A DNA stretch of 64,000 nt from an uncultured Alphaproteobacteria bacterium (lineage in GTDB: Bacteria; Pseudomonadota; Alphaproteobacteria; Rs-D84). The stretch lies in the NCBI GenBank assembly GCA_944389555.1, contig CALXMU010000002.1:30271-94270 (forward strand). The letters run 5' to 3'. Shown here in pieces: positions 20,955 through 35,439 of this stretch. The notes under the pieces were generated by a model. That model saw only the letters and a list, made by a program, of their open reading frames with translations, had not been told where the DNA came from and made no database searches. Position numbers and translations under genes: made by a program. Each line of letters opens with the position of its first letter. Position 1 is the stretch's first letter.

Positions 20955-20986
20955 CACCCCGAGTTATGTGCTCGGGGTGTTTTTTT
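20955..20986 (+). terminator. Intrinsic terminator
   Basis: CACCCCGAG-TTATGTG-CTCGGGGTG-TTTTTTT. Confidence 0.85.
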
Positions 20987-21052
20987 AGAAAGTTTTTTCT
21001 AGACATATAATTTAGATGTATGTTAAAATAATTCGCATAGAGAGAATTGTTT

Positions 21053-24000
21053 ATGAAATACATCAGATTATTATTATTAGCATTATTTTTAATTCCCGCT
21101 GGTTCTTTTGCAGCAAGTTCTACTAATAATGAGTTTATGGTTGCTGCTCAATTATTGTCTGCGGCAAAAAATGCCGATATTCAGCAAGTTCAGATTCTGA
21201 TAAATAGTGGTGCAAATGTAAATTATGTTGATAGTACGGGTTTGTCTTTGGTTTGTACGGCATTGATGAATAATGATATTCGTGCTGCGCAAATTTTGCA
21301 GATGTATGGTGCAGATGCTTCTCAATGTGACAGGCAAATAAAGCAATATGAATCTAGAAATAAGCCCGAAAGTAGTGGGGGGCTGTTTAGCGGATTATCC
21401 TCCGCCCATACGATTTCTTTGGCGGCGGCGGGAGCCGCCGTTGTTGTAGGTGGGCTTTTTTTATTAACTGATTGGTTGGACCCTGGTAACGAAAATAGTG
21501 GTGGTTCATCAAGTGAAAATCGTCCTGGCGGTGATGGCGGTGGAAGCGGTGGTGATAGTGAAGTTATCGTTTCAGAGGCAATTCCTGTGGGACCCGCATA
21601 TTTTACTTCTAGCGGTGAAATTTCTTATTCAGAGGCTCAATATCAATCAAATCTAGCGCAATGGGACCCAAGTGCTGGTGGAGTACGAGAAGCAGATTTT
21701 AATTATTTTAGACCGACAGAACAACCGACGAATAATTATATTATAGATGGTATTGCCGTCCCATTACAAAATTATTTGTTGATTATGCATGGGTATTCTT
21801 CTTTCGCAAACGGTTATATGGGGCAGACGACGTTTCGCGATGCTTCACATAATCCAATTAAAGTCTTAAATGAAACAGGTGGGGGAAAACCTATTCTTAC
21901 TACGTTGATTACGGCAAATGGGATAAATCCAACTGGTTCTGCAGAACGTACAGTCGAAGGTATTACTTGGTCTGATTCAACGGCTGCTACATCAAATACG
22001 TATACGTCTGATAAATATGCTAATTATAATAATCCGTCTGGTAATAATTTGGGAAATGAAATAGCTGGTTTTGATTTATCTGGCAGCGGTACAGCAATGA
22101 ATCCTTTCGCAACGGCAACGGAAACTGCGCTGGCAAAGATTATAGGCGGGTGGGAAGCTGGTGGGCGTGCTTATGGCGATTTATACGGTTTTACTCCGAA
22201 TGGGCAGTTAGCAGTATATAGAACAGGCGGTGGCGGTAAATGGGTGGATGTAGAAAAACCGACCGAAGGTGCCGTTGTAGGGACTTTGACAGATTCTGGT
22301 ACTGCTGGGACAGCCGGTGTTATTAATACTGGGGATACGATAACGATAAACGGGGTGACATACACTATATCGTCTGCATTGGATGATGCAGGGGTTACCA
22401 ATCCTACAATTACAATAGGTGATACAACCTATAAACTTGGTGCAGGCAGCAATTTGTTAAAAGGTTCTTGTACAGGTGATAATTGCGAAGACGTTTCTGA
22501 TATAGCTATTTATCAAGGTACTGATGGTTATTATTATGTAAATACTTCTGGTGGCGATAAACCTGATGCGGTTTATGTTATAAATAATAATAATATATAT
22601 ACTCAAAAAGAATGGCAGGAATCTGACGTTAGAAATTATGAGGCGATATATAACGCTAGAACAAATGGTTCAAGCGTAATTGCAAACGCAACTTTAAATC
22701 CAGACTCTCGGCAAGTTTCATATACTAATATCGGTGAAATAGAGTCCTATTTTGCTTTGGGTGGGGATTCAAACAAGAAAATATTGTTTGGAAATTTGAT
22801 AAATAATTATTATGAAAAAGATTCTAGTGACGCAACAAGTCAGGGGGGATATGCTAACTCGATATTTAATGGATATAATAACACTTTGCCGATATTGGTA
22901 AACCCGGCCGGTGAGTTTGCTTGGGGGCAGGGTGAAGGTAAAACAATGAATGTTTTAGATGCAACGTTTGAAAACTATGCACCTGCTTTATACGATTCTA
23001 ATTTAGAACACATGTTTATGACTATCGTCGCTGTTCAGCATTCTAAAGGAACTTCTAATGCGGATAGTATTTCTGGATATGGAAATGGAACGGGCAGTGA
23101 TTATGGTCCTTTATATTTATCTATGTGGAAAGACAGCGAAGGTAATCAATATATGTCCAGAAAATGTGGTGTTGCGGGTTTAGGGATAAATGGTGTTGAT
23201 CCATGGTGTTTCTCAGCGGCAGGACCAACGGCAGAAATGGCAACGGCATCTGCAGCGGGGGCCGTGGCCGCATTAAAAGGCGCCTTTAATTATATGTCTA
23301 ATACAGATATATTCATATTGATGGCGTTGACGGCAGATGGTCCTTATTTGGGAACTGATAGCGCAGGAAATGCTTTCACTGTTGATAGTTTGGTTAGTTA
23401 TCTAAAGAATATGTATTCTTTGCCGCCTGATTATCATTCTGACCAACTGTTTGGGCAAGATTATCTTGATGCGTTTGCAGAAGTATACGGTTATGGTATG
23501 ATAAACTTAGAGCGTGCTATGAAGCCTGGTAATAAAATTTATTTCTATGACGGGAATACAATTGTTTCGGATAATGGTAATGCATATTGGCGCGCAGCAT
23601 CAAATACTATATTCCGTGCGTCGTCAGCGTTTAGTCCTTCTACTGCGAAAATTAGCGCACCTTTTTATGACATCGTAGAAAGTTTAGACGGTGAAATTTC
23701 TTTACCAAGAATTTGGAAAAATGAGTTTGCTTTGGGGGCTTCCAGCAGGCGCGGTTTATATATGGGTGATGTTCTTGGTGAATTTAAGACACGTAACGAT
23801 GCGACAGAGCGCGTGCAGTTTGGTAATTTTGGTTTTTCTATGTCTTTGTCTGAAAAACCGTATGCCGATAACTTAGACGGTTTGGATAATATGGAATTAG
23901 ATTATACGTATGGTAATTGGAATTTTGCAGCTAGTTATCAAAGGCATTTTACAGATGGGGCATCTAGGTTTGATGGTATGTCCAACCCGATTTTAGGTTT

Positions 24001-24760
24001 GACTTCAAATGCAGTTACATCTGACATTGTTTATAATATGGGGCGTTGGTCTTTTGGTGGTCGCGCTTATTCTGGTGCTATCACTGATGAAACGATGTTG
24101 GATAACGACCCGACATTGGCCTCTCAATATTTGCCGGCTCGTCTTGGTATGATGCAGGGTGCACAGTCCGACGTTAATTGGCAGGGCGAAAAAATTGGTT
24201 TTTCTGCATCTGTCGGGGCGGCGTATGAAACAGATACTTTATTGGGGGCTCAGACTGGTGGACTATTAGATATGGGTAACGGAGAAACAATGTACGTTGA
24301 TACTGAGTTCCGTTATAGCCCAACGGAAAACATTACAATGAAATTGCGTTCTACTTTTGCGCGCACAACAACAGATGCCGAAGGGCAGTTCATACTTGGT
24401 ATTTCTGATATTGATTCTAATGCTTTTGCGTTTGGTGTTGACGCCGGTAATTTTAGTTTCAGTGTGGCTCAGCCGTTAAGTGTAAGCGGAGGAAGTTTGC
24501 AATATCCGTATGCGGACTATGAAATTGTAGATTTGGGTGACGGAAAGTATGATATTTCTATAAGTAATATGCATATAGAAAACGTAGATTTACGACCAGA
24601 AAACAGAGAGGTTCGTTTTACCGGTAGTTATCGTCATAATTTCGGAGAATTCACAGATGGTGCAATTGGGTTTATATATCGTGTGAACCCGAATAATACA
24701 AATGAATTCGGTAATGAATCAATCTTTATGATGAAATTGAGCCATCGTTTGGGGATTTAA
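21053..24760 (+). CDS. Large secreted protein: ankyrin repeats, degenerate subtilase (S8)-like region and beta-rich outer-membrane-like C-terminus
   Basis: LINSGANVNYVDSTGLSLV...LQMYGAD (ankyrin); MATASAAGAVAALKGAFNYMS and VYGYGMINLERAMKP (S8-like); alternating aromatic/Gly C-terminal strands. Confidence 0.75.
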   Translation: MKYIRLLLLALFLIPAGSFAASSTNNEFMVAAQLLSAAKNADIQQVQILINSGANVNYVDSTGLSLVCTALMNNDIRAAQILQMYGADASQCDRQIKQYESRNKPESSGGLFSGLSSAHTISLAAAGAAVVVGGLFLLTDWLDPGNENSGGSSSENRPGGDGGGSGGDSEVIVSEAIPVGPAYFTSSGEISYSEAQYQSNLAQWDPSAGGVREADFNYFRPTEQPTNNYIIDGIAVPLQNYLLIMHGYSSFANGYMGQTTFRDASHNPIKVLNETGGGKPILTTLITANGINPTGSAERTVEGITWSDSTAATSNTYTSDKYANYNNPSGNNLGNEIAGFDLSGSGTAMNPFATATETALAKIIGGWEAGGRAYGDLYGFTPNGQLAVYRTGGGGKWVDVEKPTEGAVVGTLTDSGTAGTAGVINTGDTITINGVTYTISSALDDAGVTNPTITIGDTTYKLGAGSNLLKGSCTGDNCEDVSDIAIYQGTDGYYYVNTSGGDKPDAVYVINNNNIYTQKEWQESDVRNYEAIYNARTNGSSVIANATLNPDSRQVSYTNIGEIESYFALGGDSNKKILFGNLINNYYEKDSSDATSQGGYANSIFNGYNNTLPILVNPAGEFAWGQGEGKTMNVLDATFENYAPALYDSNLEHMFMTIVAVQHSKGTSNADSISGYGNGTGSDYGPLYLSMWKDSEGNQYMSRKCGVAGLGINGVDPWCFSAAGPTAEMATASAAGAVAALKGAFNYMSNTDIFILMALTADGPYLGTDSAGNAFTVDSLVSYLKNMYSLPPDYHSDQLFGQDYLDAFAEVYGYGMINLERAMKPGNKIYFYDGNTIVSDNGNAYWRAASNTIFRASSAFSPSTAKISAPFYDIVESLDGEISLPRIWKNEFALGASSRRGLYMGDVLGEFKTRNDATERVQFGNFGFSMSLSEKPYADNLDGLDNMELDYTYGNWNFAASYQRHFTDGASRFDGMSNPILGLTSNAVTSDIVYNMGRWSFGGRAYSGAITDETMLDNDPTLASQYLPARLGMMQGAQSDVNWQGEKIGFSASVGAAYETDTLLGAQTGGLLDMGNGETMYVDTEFRYSPTENITMKLRSTFARTTTDAEGQFILGISDIDSNAFAFGVDAGNFSFSVAQPLSVSGGSLQYPYADYEIVDLGDGKYDISISNMHIENVDLRPENREVRFTGSYRHNFGEFTDGAIGFIYRVNPNNTNEFGNESIFMMKLSHRLGI

Positions 24761-33168: not shown

Positions 33169-35439
33169 ATGGCTACCGATAACCGCATTCTGGCGTTATT
33201 AAAAGTATCTTTCTTTATATCGGCTTTTTTTGTTGGGCCCGTATTCGCAGAAGGGCAAATTGTTGTCGGAAGTGGGGAAACTTATAATTTAGAAGAAGAT
33301 CAATACGAAGGTTATGATAATGCGTCTTTGAATGGAGGCGTCGTATCTGTTAGCGGAACTTTAAATGTTGCAAGTAATGTCTCATTCAAAAATAATAAGG
33401 GCGATAATGGTGGCGTCATTTATAATGAAGGTATAACTTCTATAACCAGTGAAAGCGGTAATTCTTTATTTGGTGCAAACGTGGCAAATAGTGGTGGTGC
33501 CATATATAACGCCGATACAGGAAACATTAAAGAAATTTCTCATGTTTTATTCCAAAGAAATCAGGGGCAGTCTGGTGGGGCAATAAATAATTCTAATTCA
33601 ACTGGTGCCGTCGGAGGCGGTGTAATAGATAGAATTGCCAATGCGTCTTTCATTGAAAATTCTGCAGGTACAAATCAGGGGGGGGCGATTCGTAATCAAG
33701 GTTCTATTGGTAATATAGAGACCGTTGCTTTTATAAGCAATGTTGCCGGAGAAGGTGGTGCCATAAGTAACGATTCATTTGGAATAATAAAAAAAATAGA
33801 TGCACAGTTTAATGGTAATCGTGCTTTGTCTGGTGAGGTAAAGCAAGGTGGTGCCATTTTTAATGCCGGTACAATCGAATCGATTACCGATTCGTCATTT
33901 GTTGGTAATCAGGCCGGTACTTCAGGTGGGGCAATTTATAATGCAAAAACTGGTAGTATAACTTTTAATGGGGATAATTCTTTTACAGGTAATATCGCAG
34001 ACGGCGATGCAAATGATATTTATAATAGTGGCAATGTAACAATTGCTGACGGTACAACAACAATCGGTGGCGGAATTTCAGGTAACGGTATTTTAACAAT
34101 AGAAAACGGTGCAACGCTTAGTATCGGTTCCACAACGTTAGAGCAGGGGACTTTGAATCTATATGGTACTTTATCTGCGTCAATTGTAAATGAACAAGCA
34201 TTCGGTAAAATTGATGTTGCAGCAATAAACGTTGGTGAAAACGGTAAACTTGATTTGATGTTAGGTTCAACGGGTAAGTATGATTTTGGCACAAAAATTA
34301 GTATTGATAATATCGTCTATAACGATTCGATTTACAATCTTTCAATAGATGGAACAAATATAATCGTTGAAACAAAAAATATTGATGAAATTTCTAGTAC
34401 TTCAAATCTTTCTTCTGATGCCGCGCTTGCATTAGTTGGTTTGGCTAATAGTTCTGATTATTCTATGAATATCGCTTCTTTGAATGCTCAATCCGCTTTG
34501 GATTCTGGAAATATAAGTTATGTAGAAAACGAATCGGAAAAATTATTGGGCGATGATAAACCTGTACTTCAATCCATAGAGACTGAGGTTCAAAATCAGA
34601 TTTTATCTTTGGCTTCTTCCCGTATGGGGGGCGGTAACATAGGTCGCAGCGGCGGAGACGTGGCTAATATTGATTATGGCGTCTGGGCGCAAGGACTAAT
34701 GAATAGAACAAAGTACGGAGATAGTTTTTCTGGTGACACTAATGGAATCGCGGTTGGTTTAGATGCGCTGGTAAAAGGTAAATATACCATCGGAATCGGT
34801 TATACTTATAATGAAGCAAATGTGGATTCAGGGGCTCGAGATATTGAAATAACCAGTAATAGTTTGTTTTTATATGGTCAATATAAACCTTCTAAATGGT
34901 ATATCAATACTACTTTGAATTATACGATGTCCAATTATGCTGAAATGGCGACTGCTTTCGGAATTATTGTAAACCCAGAATATGATGTCGATTCATTTGG
35001 AGGACAGATTTTGACTGGTTATAATTTTGCGGCGGGCTTGACACCAGAATTAGGCGTTCGTTATTTGCACATAAATCAAGATGATTATAATAACGGTTTT
35101 GCTGATATAGAAGGTCTGAATACAAATTATATTACAGGTGTTGCAGGGATTAAATATTCTTTCTCAATCGAATCGGAGGGACGCTTATACATTCGACCCG
35201 AAGTTCGTGTGGCGGCGACTTATGACGTTATGGCGGATGAAGCGGTTACAACAGTAATAGTGCCTGGGGCAGCGCCATATATTGTTACCGGAGAACAATT
35301 GTCACGCTTTGGTGGAGAGTTGGGAATTAGTTTAAGCGCAATGTATAATGAATGGGAATTTTCCGTCGGGTATGATTTAGATTTGCGTGATAATTATACC
35401 TCGCATACAGGAATGTTTAATGTGAAATATAAATTTTAG
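33169..35439 (+). CDS. Autotransporter with Pmp-like GGAI/FxxN passenger repeats
   Basis: Repeated GG[AV]I(YN) with FxxN; beta-domain GVWAQGLMN...TIGIGYTY...; terminal Phe (VKYKF). Confidence 0.9.
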   Translation: MATDNRILALLKVSFFISAFFVGPVFAEGQIVVGSGETYNLEEDQYEGYDNASLNGGVVSVSGTLNVASNVSFKNNKGDNGGVIYNEGITSITSESGNSLFGANVANSGGAIYNADTGNIKEISHVLFQRNQGQSGGAINNSNSTGAVGGGVIDRIANASFIENSAGTNQGGAIRNQGSIGNIETVAFISNVAGEGGAISNDSFGIIKKIDAQFNGNRALSGEVKQGGAIFNAGTIESITDSSFVGNQAGTSGGAIYNAKTGSITFNGDNSFTGNIADGDANDIYNSGNVTIADGTTTIGGGISGNGILTIENGATLSIGSTTLEQGTLNLYGTLSASIVNEQAFGKIDVAAINVGENGKLDLMLGSTGKYDFGTKISIDNIVYNDSIYNLSIDGTNIIVETKNIDEISSTSNLSSDAALALVGLANSSDYSMNIASLNAQSALDSGNISYVENESEKLLGDDKPVLQSIETEVQNQILSLASSRMGGGNIGRSGGDVANIDYGVWAQGLMNRTKYGDSFSGDTNGIAVGLDALVKGKYTIGIGYTYNEANVDSGARDIEITSNSLFLYGQYKPSKWYINTTLNYTMSNYAEMATAFGIIVNPEYDVDSFGGQILTGYNFAAGLTPELGVRYLHINQDDYNNGFADIEGLNTNYITGVAGIKYSFSIESEGRLYIRPEVRVAATYDVMADEAVTTVIVPGAAPYIVTGEQLSRFGGELGISLSAMYNEWEFSVGYDLDLRDNYTSHTGMFNVKYKF

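What the first reader, a model, noticed from the sequence alone, without database searches (positions are those of the whole stretch)
21053..24760. Ankyrin-fused, apparently catalytically dead subtilase with an outer-membrane-like C-terminus
Seen: signal peptide, ankyrin repeats and a hydrophobic helix, then subtilase-like landmarks in the right order but with the triad positions altered: TTLITANGIN (cf. VAVIDSGI), TETALAKIIGG (cf. HGTHVAGIIAG) and TAEMATASAAGAVAAL (cf. GTSMATPHVAGAVAL), followed by YGYGMINLERA. Established: S8 proteases need Asp-His-Ser, and ankyrins in host-associated bacteria are often host-interaction modules. Inference: a pseudo-protease used as a scaffold, adhesin or decoy; the alignment is by eye.
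Basis: partly seen in the sequence, partly recalled or inferred. Interest (0 to 1): 0.62.

Follow-up and report, generated by a model that had tools for sequence, protein, structure and literature searches.

The report
Dead subtilase on an outer-membrane barrel
A tiny-genome gut bacterium (Candidatus Enterousia) keeps, under strong selection, a large envelope protein in which a subtilisin-type protease domain has lost every catalytic residue yet still sits between an ankyrin module and a porin-like outer-membrane barrel, so it most likely binds something rather than cutting it.

Summary
ORF 21053-24760 (+) encodes a 1235-aa protein with these parts:
- a signal peptide;
- one ankyrin pair (aa 28-96);
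- a conserved Gly/Ala-rich hydrophobic segment (aa 119-142);
- a Gly/Ser linker;
- a subtilase (S8) fold (about aa 239-830, with a 129-aa beta-rich insert);
- a predicted barrel of about 16 strands (aa 920-1235).

Pfam does not detect the S8 domain. The homology rests on three results:
- AlphaFold2 gives pTM 0.92, and nearly all of the top 50 Foldseek hits are subtilases.
- hhalign matches Ank-S8-barrel cousins with intact triads at 99.85% probability.
- Sister families of the same order hit PF00082 above threshold.

The catalytic positions are Asp to T287, His to T356, oxyanion Asn to E621 and Ser to E728. No conserved His exists in the cleft. The substituted residues vary in distant family members, which argues against replacement chemistry.

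The gene is single-copy in the sampled genomes of all seven genera of the family. It is monocistronic and under strong purifying selection. It usually lies next to a cysteine-rich envelope gene cluster. The barrel is not the 12-strand PF03797 autotransporter type.

Function is inferred: an outer-membrane-anchored binding or scaffold pseudoprotease. The topology implied by the internal hydrophobic segment is unexplained.

I rate it a new variant of known kinds (S8 pseudoproteases, subtilase autotransporters).

The parts
20955..20979 (+). Intrinsic terminator of the upstream gene (10-bp stem, 7 G-C pairs, T run). It isolates this gene as its own transcription unit.
20984..21029 (+). Two overlapping sigma-70-like promoter matches: TTTAGA-16-TATAAT, and TAGACA-18-TAAAAT with an upstream TG. 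A GAGAGA ribosome-binding site follows, ahead of the ATG.
   Evidence: consensus matches only
21053..24760 (+). Whole ORF, 1235 codons plus TAA.
21053..21112 (+). Sec-type signal peptide, aa 1-20, with likely cleavage after SFA.
   Evidence: Read from the sequence. An N-terminal hydrophobic core is present in most relatives.
21134..21340 (+). Ankyrin repeat pair, aa 28-96, with invariant C68 and C92. It is the most conserved part of the protein (87% mean pairwise identity).
21407..21478 (+). Conserved Gly/Ala-rich hydrophobic segment, aa 119-142 (84% mean pairwise identity). Its role is unexplained.
   Evidence: low AlphaFold2 confidence
21479..21586 (+). Gly/Ser-rich, poorly conserved linker, aa 143-178.
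21767..23542 (+). Degenerate subtilase (S8) domain, aa 239-830. In the model, aa 179-238 pack onto it as an N-terminal extension.
21911..21913 (+). T287, at the position of the catalytic Asp. The column is T or S in the Enterousia family and D in 9 of 10 intact cousins (a gap in the partial tenth).
22118..22120 (+). T356, at the position of the catalytic His. The column is variable across the family and is never His.
22235..22621 (+). Beta-rich insert of 129 aa between the His helix and the next core element, with the C473/C478 pair. It is absent from cousins with an intact triad, and no relative was identified.
22913..22915 (+). E621, at the position of the oxyanion-hole Asn.
23165..23209 (+). 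C705...C719 pair (SRKCG...DPWCF), invariant and shared with the active cousins. Probably a disulfide, which would place the domain in an oxidising compartment.
23234..23236 (+). E728, at the position of the catalytic Ser, at the N-terminus of the long helix (aa 727-744).
23486..23518 (+). YGYGMINLERA, the conserved C-terminal S8 motif (YGHGLVNLEAA in cousins).
23543..23809 (+). Linker between the S8 domain and the barrel, aa 831-919. It is partly disordered in the model and has a small beta unit.
23810..24757 (+). Predicted outer-membrane beta-barrel of about 16 strands, aa 920-1235.
   Evidence: PF03797 does not hit it

Best explanation
The gene encodes an exported envelope protein of Candidatus Enterousia, anchored in the outer membrane by a C-terminal porin-like beta-barrel.

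It descends from a widespread proteobacterial family. In that family a subtilisin-type (S8) serine protease is fused to such a barrel, often with N-terminal ankyrin repeats and a Gly/Ala-rich hydrophobic spacer.

In the order Rs-D84 the protease lost its catalytic His and Ser. In the Enterousia family it also lost the Asp and the oxyanion Asn, diverged beyond Pfam detection and gained a beta-rich insert.

The fold is kept under strong purifying selection. I therefore read the domain as a non-catalytic binding or scaffolding module (a pseudoprotease). It would work together with the even more conserved ankyrin pair and hydrophobic segment, as part of the envelope or contact apparatus of this partner-dependent bacterium.

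Shown: the domain architecture, the S8 fold, the loss of all four catalytic positions, the conservation pattern and the ancestry.

Inferred: outer-membrane location, which side each domain faces, and binding rather than catalysis as the function.
For: S8 fold:
- The domain-only AlphaFold2 model (aa 180-840) has pLDDT 88 and pTM 0.92.
- Nearly all of its top 50 Foldseek PDB hits are subtilases. The best are the subtilase autotransporter passengers fusolisin (E 2.3e-5) and Ssp (E 3.9e-4). Subtilisin-class hits reach target-normalised TM 0.57-0.62.

Homology:
- hhalign of the family profile against Ank-S8-barrel cousins gives 99.85%, E 7e-31, over aa 650-1233.
- Those cousins, P0206 and P0209, score 190-198 bits on PF00082 and carry DSG / HGTH / GND / GTSMA motifs.
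- Sister families of the same order score 52-86 bits on PF00082. They match aa 527-663 at 93% probability.

Dead site:
- Asp position: T/S in 29 of 29 family representatives. His position: 12 different residues, no His. Asn position: E/D/A/G and others. Ser position: E in 55 of 55 close members, variable in distant ones.

Selection and retention:
- The gene is found in all 72 genomes and all seven genera sampled from the family, with one full-length open frame and no internal stops.
- In total, 270 genome loci encode a relative.
- pN is about 0.10-0.12 against a saturated pS of about 0.75 in the S8 and barrel parts.

Export and outer membrane:
- There is a signal peptide and three conserved Cys pairs.
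- The predicted barrel matches porins.
- The genome has BamA.

Context:
- The gene has its own promoter and an upstream terminator.
- It lies next to the Cys-rich envelope gene in 7 of 10 family genomes checked.
Against:
- Loss of the Ser-His-Asp triad does not exclude some other chemistry. E728 is invariant and E621 nearly so among the 55 closer members.
- The hydrophobic segment scores as a transmembrane helix (Kyte-Doolittle 2.18). If it stopped Sec translocation, the S8 domain and barrel would stay in the cytoplasm, which contradicts the model. The topology is unresolved.
- The alignment of the N-terminal half of the S8 domain (Asp and His motifs) is individually weak by profile comparison (E 0.02-0.7). 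It rests on colinearity, the MAFFT alignment and the fold match.
- The barrel assignment rests on a prediction; Foldseek target-normalised TM is only 0.45-0.49.
Confidence: 0.8

Rival explanations
1. The domain is still an enzyme that uses a non-canonical active site. The two glutamates now sitting where the Ser nucleophile and the oxyanion Asn were (E728, E621) would act as a carboxylate pair or a metal site.
For: E728 is invariant and E621 is present in 50 of 55 members at 56-87% identity. The surrounding motifs PAGEF and GPTAEMATASAAGAVAAL are strongly conserved.
Against: In the 29 representatives that span the whole family, both columns drift. Position 621 is E/D/A/G/R/M/W. Position 728 is E/Q/D/A/L/P/G/S/M. 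The pairs do not co-vary. The Asp and His columns hold T/S and essentially anything. The whole protein is highly conserved among close members, so invariance there is not specific to the site.
Confidence: 0.07
2. The N-terminal domains stay in the periplasm, and the barrel is a channel or anchor, as in BcsC and PgaA, where helical repeats precede a 16-strand barrel. On this view the protein is a periplasm-spanning scaffold or export pore component, not a surface-displayed adhesin.
For: The barrel is porin-sized and matches BcsC as well as porins. It is not a PF03797 autotransporter barrel. The ankyrin pair is extremely conserved (87%), which is unusual for a surface-exposed module under phage or host pressure. 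Neighbouring genes encode peptidoglycan-tied envelope proteins.
Against: The closest solved relatives of the S8 part are secreted autotransporter passengers. The active cousins would make little sense as periplasm-locked proteases tethered to a pore. This rival concerns orientation only and is compatible with the pseudoprotease reading.
Confidence: 0.3
3. The resemblance to subtilases is a chance similarity of short motifs, or the gene is a decaying pseudogene.
For: Pfam and NCBIfam give no S8 hit for the window protein. Only 1 of 39 members touches PF00082, at E 0.75.
Against: The fold search and profile-profile results are decisive. The ORF is intact, with no internal stops, in all 72 family genomes searched. 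Non-synonymous change is far lower than synonymous change.
Confidence: 0.01

Closest known systems
Subtilase (S8) autotransporters: Ssp of Serratia marcescens (PDB 8e7f) and fusolisin of Fusobacterium nucleatum (PDB 8axg); SphB1 and NalP recalled from general knowledge
   Same: All have a signal peptide, an S8-fold passenger N-terminal to a C-terminal outer-membrane beta-barrel. Ssp and fusolisin are the best structural matches of the S8 part. Ssp is the best sequence match in the PDB for the sister-family protein.
   Different: Those are active proteases with a 12-strand PF03797 barrel. Here the triad and the oxyanion Asn are gone. The barrel is predicted to have about 16 strands and is porin-like. 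PF03797 does not hit it, although it detects several other autotransporters in the same genome, three above cut-off. The ankyrin pair and hydrophobic segment have no counterpart in those proteins.
Uncharacterised 'S8 family serine peptidase' proteins with a C-terminal porin-like barrel, with or without N-terminal ankyrin repeats (P0206, P0209 and at least 1465 relatives in Alpha- and Gammaproteobacteria)
   Same: Same domain order, including the Gly/Ala-rich hydrophobic spacer and the conserved Cys pair. Homology is E 7e-31.
   Different: They keep D, H, N and S and score 190-198 bits on PF00082. They lack the 129-aa insert. I found no paper describing this architecture.
CspC and CspA pseudoproteases of Clostridioides difficile (PMC7200643; bioRxiv 10.1101/461657)
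   Same: Bacterial subtilisin-fold proteins that lost catalytic residues and act without proteolysis, alongside an active paralogue (CspB). This genome also holds one triad-intact S8-barrel paralogue.
   Different: The Csp proteins are soluble spore proteins of a Gram-positive organism, used as germinant sensors. They have no barrel and no ankyrin repeats, and the triad loss is independent. The active paralogue here is missing from 7 of 29 genomes sampled in the genus and from 3 other genera, so it cannot be an obligate partner.
Periplasmic-repeat plus 16-strand barrel proteins (BcsC; PgaA recalled from general knowledge)
   Same: A helical-repeat N-terminal region followed by a porin-sized C-terminal barrel. 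BcsC is among the Foldseek hits.
   Different: Those have TPR rather than ankyrin repeats and no protease-fold domain. Their role in polysaccharide export is not suggested by any gene nearby.

Membership tests
Peptidase S8 (subtilase) - fold and ancestry | Subtilisin alpha/beta fold | tested here: met
   The domain model has pTM 0.92. Nearly all top-50 Foldseek hits are subtilases, with target-normalised TM up to 0.62.
Peptidase S8 (subtilase) - fold and ancestry | Sequence match to PF00082 above the gathering score | tested here: not met
   No hit for the window protein. Only 1 of 39 members matches, at E 0.75. Homology is shown only indirectly, through cousins.
Peptidase S8 (subtilase) - active enzyme | Asp-His-Ser catalytic triad | tested here: not met
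   T287, T356 and E728 occupy the triad columns. There is no conserved His in the domain.
Peptidase S8 (subtilase) - active enzyme | Oxyanion-hole Asn | tested here: not met
   E621 occupies the column. It is N in 10 of 10 intact cousins.
Classical (type Va) autotransporter | C-terminal 12-strand barrel of the PF03797 family | tested here: not met
   No PF03797 hit on the protein or on its locus. Six other places in the genome do hit, three above cut-off. About 16 long strands are predicted, and the Foldseek matches are 14-18-strand porins and channels.
Classical (type Va) autotransporter | N-terminal signal peptide and a passenger N-terminal to the barrel | tested here: met
   Read from the sequence and the domain order.
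Classical (type Va) autotransporter | Passenger exposed on or released from the cell surface | not testable with these tools
   Needs cell fractionation or surface shaving.
Ankyrin repeat proteins | Profile match to the ankyrin repeat | tested here: met
   The family profile matches designed ankyrins at E 1e-14. Ank_2 matches 39 of 39 members at E<=1 (best 1.3e-5). The window protein alone scores 21.5 bits against a cut-off of 22.7.
Porin-like outer-membrane barrel (OprB / BBP2-like) | 16-strand barrel with a family profile match | tested here: inconclusive
   Predicted strands and porin Foldseek hits with target-normalised TM 0.45-0.49. Only the cousins carry weak or precomputed BBP2 or OprB hits. 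The window family has none.
Csp-type pseudoproteases | Spore-associated soluble S8 pseudoprotease paired with CspB | tested here: not met
   The architecture and organism are different. The analogy is in concept only.

The most novel reading that the evidence does not exclude
The protein is a contact device. The porin-like barrel holds it in the Enterousia outer membrane. The dead subtilase keeps its substrate cleft as a receptor for a partner-cell or host surface protein. The unusually conserved Gly/Ala-rich hydrophobic segment, which cannot be an ordinary inner-membrane anchor, inserts into the partner's membrane or threads the barrel, and so presents or delivers the eukaryote-like ankyrin pair. 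This would be an undescribed secretion or attachment mode derived from a protease-barrel fusion.
Probability: 0.1. Interest if true: 0.85.

Novelty: new variant of a known kind. Interest (0 to 1): 0.5.

Why it matters
Enterousia and the rest of Rs-D84 are uncultured gut alphaproteobacteria with genomes of about 0.9 Mb. They lack most biosynthesis and standard transporters and are thought to live off other cells (PMC12306168). A 3.7-kb gene kept intact and single-copy in such genomes is likely to matter for that lifestyle.

The case also gives a clean evolutionary series. Active Ank-S8-barrel proteases come first. His and Ser are then lost in sister families. Finally all four catalytic positions are lost, with divergence beyond profile detection. 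The series shows how a surface protease becomes a pseudoenzyme.

It also draws attention to a large, apparently undescribed family of proteases fused to porin-like barrels. The internal hydrophobic spacer of that family poses a biogenesis puzzle.

Tried and rejected
- Direct Pfam and NCBIfam scans of the protein gave only sub-threshold ankyrin hits.
- The family profile against PDB sequences found only ankyrins.
- hhalign of the N-terminal half of the S8 domain against intact cousins was not significant on its own (E 0.06). Against the sister families only the middle part was significant (93%). The Asp and His motif matches were colinear but weak (E 0.02 and 0.67).
- The 129-aa insert has no significant PDB sequence match (EatA at E 0.46). 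Its weak CBM_5_12 and Phage_attach Pfam hits are below threshold.
- P0199, listed in the exhaustive search with 19 matched stretches, is a tandem-repeat artefact and not a relative.
- I considered an alternative catalytic pair, E621/E728, and rejected it as the main reading, because both columns vary in distant members.
- I considered obligate partnership with the triad-intact paralogue and rejected it, because that paralogue is absent from several genomes and genera that keep this gene.
I therefore could not measure the three-dimensional proximity of the four substituted residues or the orientation of the S8 domain relative to the barrel.
Full report
**What is there**

The + strand carries one long ORF. 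The start is ATG 21053, preceded by GAGAGA, and the stop is TAA at 24758-24760. The product is 1235 aa. A TTG at 21047 extends the frame by two codons. Orthologues begin MKYIR..., so 21053 is the start.

Upstream, a strong terminator (20955-20979) closes the preceding gene. Promoter-like hexamers lie at 20984-21029. The gene therefore looks monocistronic.

The organism is Candidatus Enterousia, order Rs-D84, Alphaproteobacteria (record titles). The assembly has 882 kb in 5 contigs and is estimated 100% complete. Rs-D84 bacteria are uncultured, gut-associated and metabolically minimal, and are thought to depend on partner cells (PMC12306168).

**Architecture**

- aa 1-20: signal peptide, read from the sequence.
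- aa 28-96: one ankyrin pair. The family profile matches designed ankyrins at E 1e-14. Ank_2 matches 39 of 39 members at E<=1, best 1.3e-5.
- aa 119-142: Gly/Ala-rich hydrophobic segment, Kyte-Doolittle 2.18.
- aa 143-178: Gly/Ser linker.
- aa about 179-830: one compact domain.
- aa 831-919: partly disordered linker.
- aa 920-1235: about 16 long beta-strands.

**Is the central domain a subtilase?**

Sequence libraries say nothing directly. Three independent lines say yes.

1. Structure. The AlphaFold2 model of aa 180-840 has pLDDT 88 and pTM 0.92. Nearly all of its top 50 Foldseek PDB hits are S8 proteases. Fusolisin scores E 2.3e-5 and Ssp 3.9e-4. MycP1, mirolase, savinase and subtilisin BPN' also appear. 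Target-normalised TM is 0.57-0.62 where the alignment spans the insert. The whole-protein model gave the same two subtilase autotransporters plus outer-membrane porins.

2. Intact cousins. An exhaustive HMMER search found only 94 clusters at 50% identity. Its weakest members, P0206 and P0209, have the same domain order. They score 190-198 bits on PF00082 and have full DSG / HGTH / GND / GTSMA motifs. hhalign of the Enterousia profile against them gives 99.85% probability and E 7e-31 over aa 650-1233. That span covers the last third of the S8 domain, the linker and the barrel. The cousins belong to a family of at least 1465 proteins, mostly annotated 'S8 family peptidase', in Alpha- and Gammaproteobacteria.

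3. Intermediates. In other families of Rs-D84 the homologous 1396-1626-aa proteins hit PF00082 at 52-86 bits. Their best PDB sequence match is Ssp. They align to aa 527-663 of the window protein at 93% probability. The Asp-motif and His-motif matches are colinear but individually weak (E 0.02 and 0.67). A MAFFT alignment of 42 sequences places all motifs in register.

**The catalytic positions**

| Position | Window protein | 29 family representatives | 55 closer members | Rs-D84 sister families | Intact cousins |
|---|---|---|---|---|---|
| Asp | T287 | T 25, S 4 | T 49, S 4, V 1, M 1 | D, G, S | D in 9 of 10 (gap in the partial tenth) |
| His | T356 | 12 different residues, never His | Y, N, T, V, S, M, D | F, Y, S | H in 10 of 10 |
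| Oxyanion Asn | E621 | E 14, D 6, then A, G, R, M, W | E 50, D 3, A 1, G 1 | N, N, D | N in 10 of 10 |
| Ser | E728 | E 14, then G, D, Q, S, A, L, P, M | E in 55 of 55 | A, G, A | S in 10 of 10 |

The only invariant histidines in the protein are H246 and H1231. H246 lies in the N-terminal helix, ahead of the Asp strand. H1231 lies in the C-terminal barrel motif.

There is therefore no alternative Ser-His-Asp triad. The glutamates that replaced Ser and Asn are not kept across the family, which argues against a new catalytic pair.

The order of loss appears to be His and Ser first, already in the sister families, and then Asp and Asn. One sister family still has the Asp and two still have the Asn.

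**It is not a decaying gene**

- All 72 genomes and all seven genera sampled from the family have one full-length open frame without stops.
- 270 genome loci encode a relative.
- Against the orthologue at 81% identity, pN is 0.10-0.12 in the S8 and barrel parts, while pS is about 0.75 and saturated.
- Mean pairwise identities among 39 members: ankyrin pair 87%, hydrophobic segment 84%, S8 58-61%, barrel 61%, insert 52%, Gly/Ser linker 41%.
- The two N-terminal elements, not the protease remnant, are under the tightest constraint.

**The barrel**

- DSSP on the model gives about 16 long strands.
- Foldseek matches 14-18-strand porins and channels, including BpsOmp38, Omp32, OprB, MOMP and BcsC, at target-normalised TM 0.45-0.49.
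- PF03797, the classical 12-strand autotransporter barrel, hits six other places in this genome, three above cut-off and one inside the window, but not this gene.
- Cousins carry weak BBP2 or precomputed OprB-family hits.
- The genome encodes BamA, and a SurA/PpiD-like chaperone gene lies 2.4 kb downstream.

I therefore call it a porin-like barrel and do not file the protein as a type Va autotransporter.

**Compartment**

Three Cys pairs are conserved: C68/C92 in the ankyrin pair, C473/C478 in the insert, and C705/C719 in the S8 core. The last pair is shared with the active cousins. This fits an oxidising compartment for all domains.

That sharpens a puzzle. The hydrophobic segment between the ankyrin pair and the S8 domain scores as a membrane helix. 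If it halted Sec translocation, the S8 domain and the barrel would stay in the cytoplasm.

A similar Gly/Ala-rich segment followed by poly-Gly occurs throughout the wider family, at varying hydrophobicity (Kyte-Doolittle 1.0-2.5). AlphaFold2 leaves it unstructured.

I conclude that it is exported. What it does afterwards is unknown. Possibilities are lining the barrel, associating with the outer membrane, or inserting into another membrane.

**Context**

The gene lies divergently next to a cluster of exported Cys-rich proteins and an OmpA-domain protein. The 289-aa Cys-rich neighbour is within about 1.5 kb of the orthologue in 7 of 10 family genomes checked, including a second genus, and about 5 kb away in an eighth. 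GrpE is adjacent or near in about half of them. Earlier notes of this scan describe that cluster as an orphan envelope system. I tested only the linkage.

**A paralogue**

The same genome has a 611-aa S8 protein at G000:C2:113406-115235, outside the window. It has a signal peptide, a Gly/Ala-rich hydrophobic stretch, intact D/H/N/S motifs (PF00082 at 104 bits) and a shorter C-terminal beta domain ending in F. That beta domain shares a barrel motif with this protein at 94% probability.

It is present in 22 of 29 genomes sampled in the genus. It is absent from the three other genera of the family that were sampled. An active/dead pair in the style of CspB/CspC is therefore possible in this strain, but it cannot be the general mode of action.

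**Verdict**

The thing is a pseudo-subtilase derived from an apparently undescribed Ank-S8-porin-barrel family. It most likely serves as an outer-membrane-anchored binding or scaffold protein of the Enterousia envelope.

Pseudo-subtilases (CspC and CspA; PMC7200643) and subtilase autotransporters (Ssp, fusolisin) are both known. I therefore rate it a new variant of known kinds. The unresolved topology and the parent family are the most interesting leads.

Noticed in passing
own genome G000:C2:113406-115235 (-), locus L090 757-2592; outside the window: A second S8 protein of 611 aa. It has intact Asp/His/Asn/Ser motifs, a signal peptide, a Gly/Ala-rich hydrophobic stretch and a short C-terminal beta domain ending in F. 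It is the only PF00082 hit in the genome, and it is missing from 7 of 29 genomes sampled in the genus and from three other genera.
   Followed up: partly
L007 2503-7383, L008 2383-6573, L009 2251-6450 (other Rs-D84 families): Homologues of 1396-1626 aa keep a Pfam-detectable S8 domain but lack His and Ser. They carry an acidic insert of about 330 aa between the 'APG' strand and the former Ser helix. That is the site where PA domains sit in other subtilases.
   Followed up: partly
window 33169-35439 (+): A 756-aa ORF whose C-terminus is a clear PF03797 autotransporter barrel (108 bits, genome coordinates C2:64951-65646). The genome has at least three such classical autotransporters.
   Followed up: no
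P0206, P0209 and relatives: A large family (at least 1465 proteins) of triad-intact S8 proteases fused to a porin-like barrel, many with N-terminal ankyrin repeats. They all share a Gly/Ala-rich hydrophobic stretch followed by poly-Gly, often ending in A-x-A-like residues. A full-text search found no paper on it.
   Followed up: partly
window 22235-22621 (aa 395-523): A beta-rich insert with repeated TITINGVTYTI / TITIGDTTYKL-like hairpins and a CxxxxC pair. There are weak sub-threshold CBM_5_12 hits in 7 of 39 members and no PDB sequence match.
   Followed up: partly
window 20955-20979: A textbook intrinsic terminator (10-bp stem, 7 G-C pairs, T7 tail) after the 20229-20936 gene, immediately followed by the promoter-like sites of the pseudoprotease gene.
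   Followed up: no
protein P0199: A 1480-aa tandem-repeat protein scored E 4e-18 with 19 stretches against aa 870-934. Its sequence is a near-perfect repeat of about 58 aa unrelated to the family, so it is a spurious hit in the representative library.
   Followed up: yes
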